Shown: positions 39,262 to 49,256 of the stretch, piece after piece | Numbering within the stretch: the first letter of the stretch is position 1 | Layout: each line of letters opens with the position of its first letter | Source: Paraspadella gotoi | Taxonomy: Eukaryota > Animalia > Chaetognatha | Assembly (NCBI GenBank): GCA_051294375.1 | Contig: CM119268.1 | Coordinates: 13,151,770-13,215,769, forward strand | Length of the DNA: 64,000 nt | Direction of reading: 5' to 3' | Made by a program: the position numbers and the translations under genes | Notes under the pieces: model-generated | Databases searched by the model: none | Told to the model about the DNA's origin: nothing | Seen by the model: the letters and a program-made list of their open reading frames with translations, nothing else

Positions 39262-39663
39262 TCAACCTGCTCCCCCGAAAGGGAAAAATCCGTAAATAGT
39301 TGGCTTCCTCGTCGTCGTCGTCGTAGTTTGCGAAGCGTTGACGCTATACAGCGATTGGATTTCCCGGATGTCGTCGTCGTGAAGCTGAAATTCTGAAGCG
39401 AAATTGAAATAGAAATTGAATTGATATGAAACACTTAGAAGGTTATCTATCCTATGAATTGCTAACGTGTTTTATCGCGGACTCTCTAGCTCAGTCAGCC
39501 ACCTTTCAACCGATATTTCATATAAAATTTTAACAACTAGAAAATCCTCAACGCCGATATATATCTGTTTGAGGTTTCTTTGGTGTTGGCGGTTGCCACG
39601 AATTTCGTATTGCGAAACCCTCCGACAACGAGTGACATGAAACAACTCGTCTTCATGTGACTA

Positions 39664-39696
<33 letters not shown>

Positions 39697-42600
39697 AGGA
39701 GCGAGAGACCGGGAGGAAGAGCGAACGCTCTTTTTAAGAAAGGGGAAGAAGGAAGAGTGATTGGCTGGATAATGGATAGTGGATATTCTAGAAATTACTC
39801 AGAGGTTTTAGTACTTCAGCTTGGAGCTCTTCAAATGTAAAACTTGTTATCGGTAAATATTTTAAATAAAATTCAGTGAAATAAATCAAAATAAAACGAT
39901 AACCAAGGACGAACAAAATGACGCGTTTCGGACTTCGTTCCAAGGAAAAGCAGCTCATTCCGCTCAAGAAAATCGATAACAAGTAAGTGGGAGTGGCTTT
40001 GTAACCGGGCTTAGTGAAATTTGCGGTATAAATGGTGGTGTAAGTTTTTTCGGTAACTTTATTCTATATAGTGGATATTCGTTATCCTTTGTGTGATGTT
40101 CCATGGTTCATGGTTCATGGTTCATGCTTGAAAAAAAAAAAAAAAAAAAAAACTTCTTCAAATGTGCCTAGGGTGACGGTTAAAGGATTGCACGCGGAAG
40201 TCTGCAGTCAACTTTACTACAAAAATGAAGATTCGAAATCAATGGAAGCCACGTTTACATTTCCCCTTGATGACGATAGGTAATTCCGGTAACCTACGTA
40301 GAAAATAGACTTACGTCAACCTTTACTCGAGATGTCTCAAGATAGCCTCGGCGCGAACACATCTTTCGCGTAGGGATCGATTAAGAATTAATTATTAAAG
40401 ATGTTTTAAAATTTGGAAGTTGGAAGACTGCATGTCTTGCAAATTATGGCGAGACTTAAAAGACTCGCGATCTTTTGTTTCTTTCTTCTCATTTGTAATG
40501 AGATATCTCTACAGTCAGTCCTTAAAACTATTTCGATATGTAACTTAACACGGACAAAAGGCATTTTACTAAAAAAGATAAGAAAAAGAAGGCAGCAACT
40601 TTAACCGAAGGAAATTATCCTTACTTGGGAACCCACTTCCAACAATCCCCCTCAACCCCGCCAGCGCCGTCTACTCTTTCAAAGCCCTCGTCGACGACGT
40701 TGAAACCGTGGCCGAGATTCAAGAGAAGGAGACGGCGAAAGAGACCTACGACGCGGCCGTCGCCGCCGGAGAGACGGCGTTCCTGGCGGAAGAGTCCGAG
40801 ACGAGCGGCGACATTTTCCGGTGCCGGATCGGCAACATCCCGCCGGGGTCGGCGGCGACACTCACTCTCGCCTACGTCGTCGATCTGCCCGTCGACGAAG
40901 AGGGCGCCGTTACGTTCACTCTGCCAACTGTCTTGAACCCGCGGTTGGTGTTGTTGTCGTCGTTATATCTTGCCAAAGAATGGGTATATACAGTAATGAG
41001 TACATATAATATAATTCATATACATATAATTAGTAACTAACTAAAAAAATCAGACCAAATTTACTTAAAACAATAAAATAAACAGTAGTAATAATATTCA
41101 ATTCTTCCCATTTCCTCTTTCAAGCTACTGCCCCCCTGATTTCACGGGTCCAAATCCCTCCGTAGAGTCTCCAGTCGTCGTCATGGAAACCAAACAGGAC
41201 ACGCCCTACGAATTCGGCTTTCGTCTTGTCGTCGACAACGTCTTCCCGGTCAAATCCGTCTCAGCGTTCGGAGACGAAGTTGAGGTGCGTCTCGTTCTTT
41301 TTGTCATCCTCGTTGACGTCATCCACTTTATTTTTTTTTATTTTTTTCATCAAATCGTTAGCTCCAAATTTTAACCAAAAGTAATGTTTGATAGCGTAAG
41401 TTAAATTATATGCATAGAGGTTAAAAAATATTAAAACATCTTTGATGTGCGGGGTTTTCCGTCTCGCTCACCTTCTGAGAACATCAATATCGCTGGTGGC
41501 TAATTAATATTAATAGAATCAGTTTGAAAAGAAATCATGATTACTACAGAATAATCAAATAATAACAAACGGCAATGTTTGTAAACAAATATTGATTGTT
41601 TATAAAAATTATTATAAATTAAAAGTGATAAAGTCTAACGAGAGTTTGTGTCCAACATCTTATCAAAGACTTGATTATTTTTCTTCAAACTTTTTTCTCT
41701 CCTTAGTGCTTCTCCGAGTCCTTCGGGTCACGAAGGAGCGAAGGTTGAGATTTGACGTCCGAAATTTGGTCATTTCGTAAACAGATTTTTTAATACTTCG
41801 CAACAGAGCTTGAAAAATTTACCGTCGCTTTTAATTTAAACTATTTCCCGTCTTTTCCCCCCCCCCCACAGATCGGCACCACCGACTGCAATGATCCGCA
41901 AGGATCTCCCCGCAAGACTGTCACCATCTCCGGCAACGCCTTCGACCACGACCTTCGAGTCCGCGTCGCCTACGACCGCGGGATGGCGCCAGTGGCGATG
42001 TTCCAGGCGGGGCGCGCCGACAAGCCTGGCTTTCTGAAGAACCACGTGGCGGCGCTTAACTTCTTCCCGGATTTGGCGTCGTTGAAGGAGGCGCGGCTCA
42101 AGGAGGCCGAGTTCGTCTTCATCATCGACAGATCCGGTTCGTCGTTTTTGTTAAAAATTTTGTTGTAGTTTTGAATTTGATTTAGGTATTGCTATCGTTC
42201 GTATGTGTAGAGAAGTCGTTCCTTAAATAAATGAGGAACATAAACTACTAAATCTACTTGTACGAGTTACGATAGCGAAAAATCTTCCAACTACATTTAA
42301 GTTTGATGCTTGGGAGAAGGAGAAATTATAAAAAGAATTGCCCAGTGCCAACACTAAATGGTTCAACATGGAAAGATAAAATAATTCTAGCCCTTCTCTC
42401 GCTCTTTCCTTTCTCCAGGCAGCATGCAGGGCGACCGCATCACAGCGGCAAAAGAGGCACTGCTGCTGCTGCTCAAGAGTCTCCCCGTCGGCTGCAGCTT
42501 CAACGTCGTCTCCTTCGGATCAAGTTTCGAGATGCTCTTTTCGGGCGGTAGCAAGGAATACTCGGAGAAGTCCCTCGGCGAGGCCTTGCGGCTGCAGAAG

Positions 42601-48073: not shown

Positions 48074-48205
48074 AAATAATAAATAAATAAAAATAATAGA
48101 TAAATAAATATAAATAAATAAATAAATAAAAATAATAAATAAATAAAAAAAATAAATAAATAAATTAAAAAAATAAATAAACAAATAAATAAATAAATAA
48201 ACAAA

Positions 48206-48260
<55 letters not shown>

Positions 48261-49256
48261 AAATAATTAAATAAAAAAATAAATAAATACCCAACGATCC
48301 TCAAGGTTGGAGAACGACCTGGACGTGGTCAGGGAAGAGGCTCGTCGAGCGATGCTTCGAGCGGCGCGACTCGAAGAGGAGTCGGAGGCGACGAAGGTCG
48401 AGCTGAGGAGAATGACGAGGAGAGAGAGCGAGACGAGGAGACGCGTTGAGACCATGGAGGAAGGGAGGAGAAAGAGAGAGGAGGAGATGAAAGAAGAGAG
48501 AAGGAATTGGGAGAGGGAGATGGAGAAGGCGAGGAGGAGATTCCGCGAGCTCGAGGACGAGAACGACGAGCTAAGGGTTCGTAGAAAGGCTGGGGGGGGA
48601 GTGGAAAGAATGTGAGGGGGAGTGGAAAGGTTGGAGGGGATAGTGAAAAAATTGTGGGGGGGAGTGTAAAGGTTGGAGAGGATAGTGGAAAGAATGGGTA
48701 TCGGTGTTTAGATGAGACGTGAGGGACCACGATAGAGTTGGGGCTCGGAGGCAGAGAAGACAAAGGTTAGCGGTTGAAATAATAATAAAAAAAAAGTTTC
48801 ATAAGCATGTTAGGTATAAGGTATAGAACAAATATTGTCCAAATATTGTCCAAATATTGTCCATCCCTCCAATTAATCAGGACGGAAAGACCCGGTGCTG
48901 GGAGGAGCGGCTCTGCGCGGTCTGCCTTGAGCGGGAGAAAGATACGGTCTTTCTGGACTGCGGTCACGTGGGCTGCGGAGTCTGCGCTGCGCTGCTCGAC
49001 TCCTGCCACATTTGTCGCCGAACGATCGGGAAGAGGATGAGAATTTTCTTCAGCTAGAAGCATCGTCCGAGTTACGACGACGGCTCTCTGTCTCTCTATC
49101 TCTCTATCACACCAACAAACCTCACCGTCATCATCCAAGTGAATGTCGCCGCCGATAAGGTTGAGCGGATTCGGATAGAAGGCGTGGGCCAAGACGCCGC
49201 CCCTGCCGCGGAATGGTTTACAAGCTTCATGATGACTTCCGCCCTTGAAGACGATC
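39262..49256 (-). CDS. Matrix metalloproteinase (peptidase M10A) catalytic-domain exons, partial gene
   Basis: Exon 49126-49256 (PFRGRGGVLAHAFYP..GGDIHLDDD), exon 45297-45434 (ELWT..NLLQVLVHEIGHSLGLRHS..DAIMFAFY) and exon from 39392 (KFQLHDDDIREIQSLY, reading to TGA at 39262-39264 unless spliced at 39267) join through phase-1 GT-AG introns. HExxHxxGxxH and Met-turn are intact; 5' exons not seen. Confidence 0.9.
39918..44887 (+). CDS. VWA5A: von Willebrand factor A domain-containing 5A-like protein (VIT + vWA)
   Basis: Ten exons: 39918-39982, 40172-40279, 40665-40943, 41125-41284, 41872-42135, 42419-42726, 42814-42900, 43114-43281, 43535-44148, 44370-44887. VIT motifs EATFTFPLD, IQEKETAKETYDAAV, GNIPPG; MIDAS FIIDRSGSM; LLTDG; HRLAAK; SRFTAFVGVD; LQRFGGSW. 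Confidence 0.9.
45849..49057 (+). CDS. Putative E3 ubiquitin ligase: ZZ-like zinc finger, acidic linker, coiled coil, C-terminal C3HC4 RING
   Basis: In-phase exons 45849-47677, 48306-48576, 48881-49057. CDGC..FGCDADDFRLCEKCF near the N-terminus; CAVCLEREKDTVFLDCGHVGCGVCAALLDSCHICR at the C-terminus (IAP/Mind-bomb-type RING). Confidence 0.8.
47800..48012. mobile_element. Mutator-like MITE with internal degenerate (CCCTAA)n
   Basis: ~30-bp TIRs ggctaaattttactttcgccgaccgcggtt / aacctcggtcagcgaaagtaaaagtaacc; 9-bp AAATAAATA on both flanks. Confidence 0.65.
48013..48289. repeat. (AAAT)n microsatellite
   Basis: Direct observation. Confidence 0.95.

What the first reader, a model, noticed from the sequence alone, without database searches (positions are those of the whole stretch)
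39262..49256. Consecutive MMP introns each host a complete antisense gene
Seen: three minus-strand exons splice in phase (DDD-G|AA = E, RP-A|AA = K) into a continuous MMP catalytic domain. The 5.9-kb intron 39393-45296 contains the 10-exon VWA5A-like gene and the 3.7-kb intron 45435-49125 contains the 3-exon RING gene. With the tRNA cluster, three successive introns would carry cargo. Nested genes are known, but serial nesting within one catalytic domain is unusual.
Basis: partly seen in the sequence, partly recalled or inferred. Interest (0 to 1): 0.7.

Follow-up and report, generated by a model that had tools for sequence, protein, structure and literature searches.

The report
Metalloprotease gene hosting two backward genes
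In an unidentified animal, four exons of a matrix-metalloprotease gene lie on one strand with two whole protein-coding genes between them on the other strand and 19 tRNA genes beyond; they likely form one long gene with cargo-filled introns, a real but known kind of nested arrangement, and one of its key splice joints is still unshown.

Summary
The DNA observation holds. The minus-strand exons 49126-49256, 45297-45434 and 39267-39392 have GT-AG ends and join in phase into one Peptidase_M10 domain. A 10-exon VWA5A-like gene and a 3-exon RING gene lie between them on the plus strand. One contig leaves exon A at its acceptor for MMP-like letters absent from the window, so the 19 tRNA genes likely sit in an intron of over 14.7 kb. 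The limits: joint 45297>39392 follows only from depth arithmetic. The odder feature is the tRNA cluster, which serves 17 amino acids with 19 genes.

The parts
49126..49256 (-). MMP exon A (first part of the catalytic domain held in the window)
   Evidence: Pfam M10 54-93; AG/GT ends; an RNA contig leaves the genome exactly at its acceptor with 41 loose letters
45297..45434 (-). MMP exon B with the zinc-binding HExGHxxGxxH motif and Met-turn
   Evidence: Pfam M10 96-137; PDB matrilysin and MMP-12 hits E about 1e-8; bin depth 4.42 equals 138 letters at depth 9.7
39267..39392 (-). MMP exon C: end of the catalytic domain and Thr-rich linker
   Evidence: covered with no other letters by the 551-nt contig
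39138..39199 (-).
   Evidence: CT..AC 67-nt joint 39198>39266; translation and stop; mean hydropathy 2.4 over the last 15 aa
39393..45296 (-). MMP intron B/C, 5904 nt, 88% filled by the VWA5A-like gene
   Evidence: joint inferred from depth, not listed
39918..44887 (+). VWA5A-like gene (VIT + VWA domains), 10 exons, 856-857 aa; RNA cover to 45008, AATAAA at 45113
   Evidence: 8 of 9 introns listed as joints; about 38% identity over nearly the whole length to named mollusc VWA5A-like proteins
45435..49125 (-). MMP intron A/B, 3691 nt, 87% filled by the RING gene's coding span
   Evidence: joint not seen in RNA contigs
45849..49057 (+). RING gene, exons 45849-47677, 48306-48576, 48881-49057: Cys-rich N-terminus (weak ZZ match), acidic middle, charged stretch that looks like a coiled coil, C-terminal C3HC4 RING
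   Evidence: second intron seen as a GT..AG joint; first intron not spanned by either lay
49257..64000 (-). Start of the upstream MMP intron (likely over 14.7 kb; runs off the window)
   Evidence: loose-end letters absent from the window at up to 3 mismatches; no MMP-like exon found here by tblastn with 150 relatives
49373..63881 (.). Cluster of 19 tRNA genes (11 plus, 8 minus), 18 anticodons, 17 amino acids
   Evidence: ARAGORN, Rfam; the gene at 52419-52508 reads as Met-CAT with a 17-nt intron

Best explanation
Four minus-strand exons of a matrix-metalloprotease gene flank two complete plus-strand protein-coding genes, and they likely belong to one long gene whose consecutive introns, spliced out whole, carry a VWA5A-like gene, a RING-finger gene and, likely, a 19-gene tRNA cluster. 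Shown: the exon structures and phases, the splicing of both nested genes (8 of 9 and 1 of 2 introns), the last MMP intron, and a departure from the genome at exon A's acceptor. Inferred mechanism: RNA polymerase II copies a pre-mRNA of at least 25 kb from a promoter beyond the window, and the spliceosome removes the 14.7+, 3.7 and 5.9 kb introns. The nested genes use their own promoters; because they are antisense, their own splice and poly(A) signals are not read on the host transcript. The product is predicted to be a zinc endopeptidase without a hemopexin domain, ending in a Thr-rich stalk and a hydrophobic tail that may be a GPI-anchor signal. The cargo most likely arrived by independent insertions or duplications into introns, with no shared function implied.
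For: Adjacent Pfam positions and canonical in-phase junctions. Nearly gap-free alignment across both junctions. Only one copy of each exon in the window. RNA contigs splice the nested genes as modelled, and intronic bins have zero depth. The 551-nt contig joins exons D and C; bin 45163-45465 has depth 4.42, which is 138.07 letters at that contig's depth of 9.7, and exon B is 138 nt. The five hidden joints appear to be the least deep ones, since 9.7 is the lowest depth listed, so this joint may be among them. Read by hand, the loose end at 49256 is in frame and resembles the residues that precede this segment in relatives. An antisense bias is the rule in flies (PMC3814207).
Against: Joint 49126>45434 was not seen. 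In one search only 2 contigs were laid: one runs through exon A into the RING 3' end at depth 2.72, and the depth-9.7 contig is absent, so its last 164 letters are not exon A at 95% likeness or were filtered out. Joint 45297>39392 is not in the printed table. The evidence is one run, unstranded contigs, and RNA only by guess. No DNA run or genome was available to check the assembly, and the window holds a 12-kb inverted duplication around a gap. The 5' part of the gene is outside the window. Minus-strand AATAAA hexamers do occur in both introns (8 and 3).
Confidence: 0.68

Rival explanations
1. The gene is nested as drawn, but in this sample exons B-C-D are mostly joined to a different 5' exon. 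This would be either a short antisense first exon started near the RING gene's 5' end (a truncated host transcript, as in ceh-10/polq-1) or a diverged duplicate of exon A beyond the window. Exon A would then be a minor or alternative exon.
For: A strong minus-strand donor (GTAAAT) lies at 45761. Bins 45769-46374 have depth 9.87 and 8.72 and the next bin has 0. Precedent: PMC12274878 (passages).
Against: The donor at 45761 would give a bin depth of about 0.26 in 45466-45768, not the 0.49 seen (my arithmetic), and only 8 codons are open upstream of it. The depth near 45769-46374 can be the RING mRNA itself. No second exon-A-like sequence lies in the window. The tool warns that filters drop records and that contigs drop rare forms.
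Confidence: 0.22
2. The exons are not one transcription unit. Exon A would be the end of a separate or decaying MMP paralog and B-C-D part of another, or the order would be an assembly error, so VWA5A and RING would only look serially nested.
For: No RNA joint from A to B. A depth-107 contig differs at 5 places in the 3' UTR region, so a second allele or paralog is in the run. An inverted duplication with frameshifts lies nearby.
Against: A and B abut in the profile with matching phase, no stops and canonical sites. Exon A keeps a clean donor and is spliced at its acceptor. Exons C and D match the RNA contig with no other letters, and nothing upstream of exon B other than A can complete the domain.
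Confidence: 0.1

Closest known systems
Opposite-strand nested (intronic) genes of animals: Drosophila (PMC3814207), C. elegans (PMC12274878), Hormiphora (PMC8527503), human and mouse (PMC11694760)
   Same: Multi-exon genes antisense inside kilobase introns of a host; more than one per host is common (2357 nested genes in 1654 hosts in Hormiphora)
   Different: Here the cargo fills about 88% of two consecutive introns that split one catalytic domain, and the RING 3' UTR probably overlaps a host exon; I found no published count of this exact layout
C. elegans ceh-10 nested in polq-1 (PMC12274878, passages)
   Same: Antisense nested gene; a short host transcript is one reading of the RNA contigs here
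   Different: There it was shown by CRISPR and smFISH; here it is only a rival built on depth arithmetic
Intronic tRNA genes: Drosophila Mmp2 hosts tRNA:met3:46A (PMC1779558, passage); 264 of 608 C. elegans tRNA genes are nested (PMC3342880, table passage)
   Same: tRNA genes in an intron of a protein-coding gene, even of an MMP gene
   Different: 19 genes serving 17 amino acids in 14.5 kb; homology with the fly case not tested
Matrixins, MEROPS M10A / Pfam PF00413 (PDB matrilysin, MMP-12; named relatives from Physella, Macrobrachium, Branchiostoma, Octopus)
   Same: Zinc-binding motif and Met-turn; about 45-56% identity over the domain part
   Different: No hemopexin domain; ends in a hydrophobic tail; the usual acidic residue of the FDG calcium loop (recalled label) is Arg in exon A; prodomain not in the window
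VWA5A (VIT + VWA) family
   Same: Same domain order, about 38% identity over the full length to mollusc members
   Different: Nested position; no MMP-nested VWA5A was seen in 80 related loci, most of them short or intronless

Membership tests
Nested intronic gene pair (VWA5A in MMP) | Whole nested transcript lies inside one host intron | tested here: met
   ATG at 39918, RNA cover to 45008, AATAAA at 45113, all within 39393-45296; no depth in bin 39406-39708
Nested intronic gene pair (VWA5A in MMP) | Host exons on either side are spliced together | tested here: inconclusive
   Implied by depth arithmetic (138.07 letters at depth 9.7); the joint row itself was not printed
Nested intronic gene pair (RING in MMP) | Nested coding sequence lies inside one host intron | tested here: met
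   45849-49057 within 45435-49125
Nested intronic gene pair (RING in MMP) | Whole nested transcript, UTRs included, lies inside the intron | tested here: inconclusive
   First AATAAA is at 49262, past exon A, and a contig runs through exon A, but the contig is unstranded
Nested intronic gene pair (RING in MMP) | Host exons on either side are spliced together | tested here: inconclusive
   Joint 49126>45434 not seen in the one run; contigs drop rare forms
Matrixin (M10A) | HExGHxxGxxH motif and Met-turn; Pfam PF00413 above cut-off | tested here: met
   31.2 and 51.7 bits against a cut-off of 24; motif in exon B
Matrixin (M10A) | Signal peptide and cysteine-switch prodomain | not testable with these tools
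   5' exons lie outside the window; no genome is held
GPI-anchored MMP | C-terminal hydrophobic tail after a polar spacer, processed to a GPI anchor | tested here: inconclusive
   Tail present; no GPI predictor was run
VWA5A | VIT domain followed by a VWA domain, full-length similarity | tested here: met
C3HC4 RING protein | RING finger above the Pfam cut-off | tested here: met
   48.7 bits against 27; ligase activity not tested

The most novel reading that the evidence does not exclude
One animal MMP gene uses three successive introns as a cargo hold, including a compact tRNA set with nearly one gene per amino acid, and the promoter region of its nested RING gene launches a truncated antisense MMP transcript that outnumbers the full-length one, so the cargo controls which host product is made.
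Probability: 0.12. Interest if true: 0.6.

Novelty: new member of a known kind. Interest (0 to 1): 0.3.

Why it matters
If the joints hold, this is a compact test bed for transcriptional interference: three protein genes and 19 polymerase III genes share about 25 kb, with one probable sense-antisense exon overlap. It also warns annotators, since gene finders would likely split such a host into fragments. It does not change what is known about nested genes. The tRNA cluster is the part most worth a separate look.

Tried and rejected
No genome is held for this window, so the 5' exons and paralogs could not be sought. The word-index search with exon B found nothing. The HMMER search found 887 relatives; the 150 listed are at most 73% identical, so none comes from this genome. 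Only one sequencing run was listed, RNA by guess, and no DNA run. Uncovered stretches in the lays (46375-46677, 48511-48546) are not used as evidence. Joints between GAC-repeat stretches (20-letter sides) were rejected as chance. The scan of metagenome contigs covered 3 of 64 parts and kept 80 of 227 relatives, at most 70% identical; none of the 80 loci holds a VWA5A or RING match, but only 19 are 10 kb or longer and many are intronless, so this says nothing on conservation. Intron position: 2 of 150 relatives begin their match exactly at junction 1 and most exon-bounded ones begin 8-10 residues later, a weak hint only. Rejected: an upstream MMP exon inside 49.3-64 kb; the stop at 39262 as the spliced end; ARAGORN's Tyr or Thr label for 52419-52508. 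Paper searches with no useful hit: nested genes + intron + matrix metalloproteinase + opposite strand, 0 papers; dunce/NF1/several nested, 0; single cluster / nearly complete tRNA set, 6 papers, the 5 listed not relevant by title and abstract start. Earlier findings of the scan: none near or in relatives; the word look-ups returned unrelated cases.

Full report
Setting. The window is animal DNA with GC- and CpG-rich exons and AT-rich introns. No genome is held for it. Neither the MMP nor the VWA5A search returned this genome's own protein; the best-scoring named full-length single-copy relatives of the VWA5A-like gene are from molluscs, at 60-70% identity over the VWA exon. I did not identify the organism.

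The observation. Exons 49126-49256 (A), 45297-45434 (B) and one starting at 39392 (C) have AG acceptors, A and B have GT donors, and both junctions are phase 1. Exon A matches Pfam Peptidase_M10 at positions 54-93 (E 2.4e-7) and exon B at 96-137 (E 1.1e-13); exon C alone has no hit. Against 150 relatives picked with exon B, 99 of 163 alignments span both junctions; gaps near junction 1 occur in 3 of 128 and near junction 2 in 24 of 158. The same 150 proteins hit the window only at these exons, and no second copy of A, B or C was found. Between C and B lies a 10-exon, 856-aa VIT + VWA gene, about 38% identical over nearly its whole length to named VWA5A-like proteins. Between B and A lies a 3-exon gene ending in a C3HC4 RING. 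The nested spans fill 88% and 87% of their introns.

RNA evidence for. One run was listed, RNA by guess, kept as contigs. Intronic bins have zero depth and 8 of 9 VWA5A introns appear as joints; the first intron is not listed. One RING intron appears as a joint; the other was not spanned. A 551-nt contig of depth 9.7 covers 39077-39198 and 39266-39392 across a CT..AC intron of 67 nt. This shows a fourth MMP exon, and the protein then ends at 39138 in a hydrophobic tail. The bin holding exon B has depth 4.42, which equals 138.07 letters at depth 9.7 (range 137.2-138.9), and exon B is 138 nt. I infer that this contig carries exon B next to exon C across the VWA5A gene. The joint row was not printed; five rows were hidden, and 9.7 is the lowest depth shown. 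A second contig leaves the genome exactly at exon A's acceptor with 41 loose letters. By hand these read in frame and resemble what precedes this segment in relatives. They are absent from the window at up to 3 mismatches. If that exon lies in cis, the intron above exon A exceeds 14.7 kb and holds all 19 tRNA genes.

RNA evidence against. Joint 49126>45434 was not seen. Only 2 contigs were laid on 48295-49365. The one on exon A has depth 2.72 and runs on from the last RING exon through the donor side without a break. The depth-9.7 contig is not there, so its last 164 letters are not exon A at 95% likeness, or the record was filtered. The length 164 would fit exon A plus 33 letters, so a diverged copy of A is possible. 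A short antisense first exon ending at the donor at 45761 is also possible, though the bin depths fit it only in part. A depth-107 contig with 5 differences near 39030-39075 shows a second allele or paralog in the run. The unbroken contig and the first AATAAA at 49262 suggest that the RING 3' UTR overlaps exon A; partly spliced MMP RNA would look the same in unstranded contigs.

Mechanism. Shown: gene structures, splicing of the nested genes, the last MMP intron, and use of exon A's acceptor. Inferred: one host pre-mRNA of at least 25 kb spliced across three cargo-bearing introns, tolerated because the protein-coding cargo is antisense. This is the missplicing argument of PMC3814207 (section 3 part 1 and passages read: 71.27% of fly nested genes are opposite-strand; introns with nested genes have a median of 4,826 nt). 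The product is predicted to be a hemopexin-less zinc protease with a possible GPI signal; no predictor was run. Insertion or duplication into introns is the stated origin of most fly cases (same section) and is assumed here, not tested.

Comparison. Hormiphora has 2357 nested genes in 1654 hosts, 484 of them doubly nested (PMC8527503, passages). Human has 13,088 pairs in 7661 hosts, and anticorrelated expression is rare (PMC11694760, section 4 and passages). C. elegans has 567 opposite nested pairs, and ceh-10 induces a short form of its host (PMC12274878, passages). Of 608 C. elegans tRNA genes, 264 are intronic (PMC3342880, one passage), and fly Mmp2 hosts a tRNA-Met gene (PMC1779558, passage). 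Several antisense genes per host is therefore a known kind. Searches for an MMP host of nested protein genes found none (0 papers, 9 papers seen as a listing, one read in passages). No supplements were read; their host lists could show how often consecutive introns are occupied.

The tRNA cluster. ARAGORN and Rfam agree on 19 genes in 49373-63881. With the gene at 52419-52508 read as Met-CAT with a 17-nt intron, they give 18 anticodons and 17 amino acids; Cys, Phe and Tyr are missing, and the window cuts the cluster. Nineteen random draws reached 17 amino acids in 414 of 400,000 trials (uniform) and 60 of 400,000 (codon-weighted). The test is after the fact and ignores the genome's real tRNA pool. 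PMC2888827 (section 6) reports that most clusters are small and that heterogeneous ones occur in several animals; that section describes no one-per-amino-acid set, and my searches found none (listings only).

Verdict. The feature is real and most likely serial antisense nesting (0.68), with one joint inferred and one unshown. It is a new member of a known kind; interest 0.3.

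Noticed in passing
window 49373-63881: 19 tRNA genes with 18 anticodons for 17 amino acids, in mixed orientation, in 14.5 kb; close to one gene per amino acid and cut by the window end. It deserves its own follow-up.
   Followed up: partly
window 52419-52508 (-): tRNA-Met(CAT) with a 17-nt intron at the usual position. From memory, animal tRNA introns are mostly in Tyr, Ile, Leu and Arg genes.
   Followed up: partly
window 18397-30763: Inverted duplication with arms 97-100% alike around the 25-N gap at 23879-23903. One arm holds an intact 908-codon frame with a trypsin-like domain (20011-22737, Pfam Trypsin_2 E 1.4e-7); the mirror copy is broken into several frames. It may be an assembly artefact.
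   Followed up: partly
window 43282-43534 (+): VWA5A intron 8 has a GC donor (GC-AG intron); the RNA joint fits it.
   Followed up: yes
window 33000-38600 (-): Several Cys-rich reading frames and a frame with a signal-peptide-like start near 38575, just downstream of the MMP gene; no Pfam hit for the 6 frames tested.
   Followed up: partly
window 60350-60730: GC- and CpG-rich island inside the AT-rich tRNA region, with short open frames on both strands and a strong minus-strand donor near 60520; no Pfam hit for the minus frame, no Rfam hit. Possibly another exon or a mobile-element remnant.
   Followed up: partly
window 47890-48290: RING intron 1 holds a degenerate TAACCC-like tract followed by about 280 nt of (ATAA)n repeat.
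   Followed up: no
window 39030-39075: A depth-107 contig differs from the window at 5 places in the MMP 3' UTR region, pointing to a second allele or paralog in the run.
   Followed up: no
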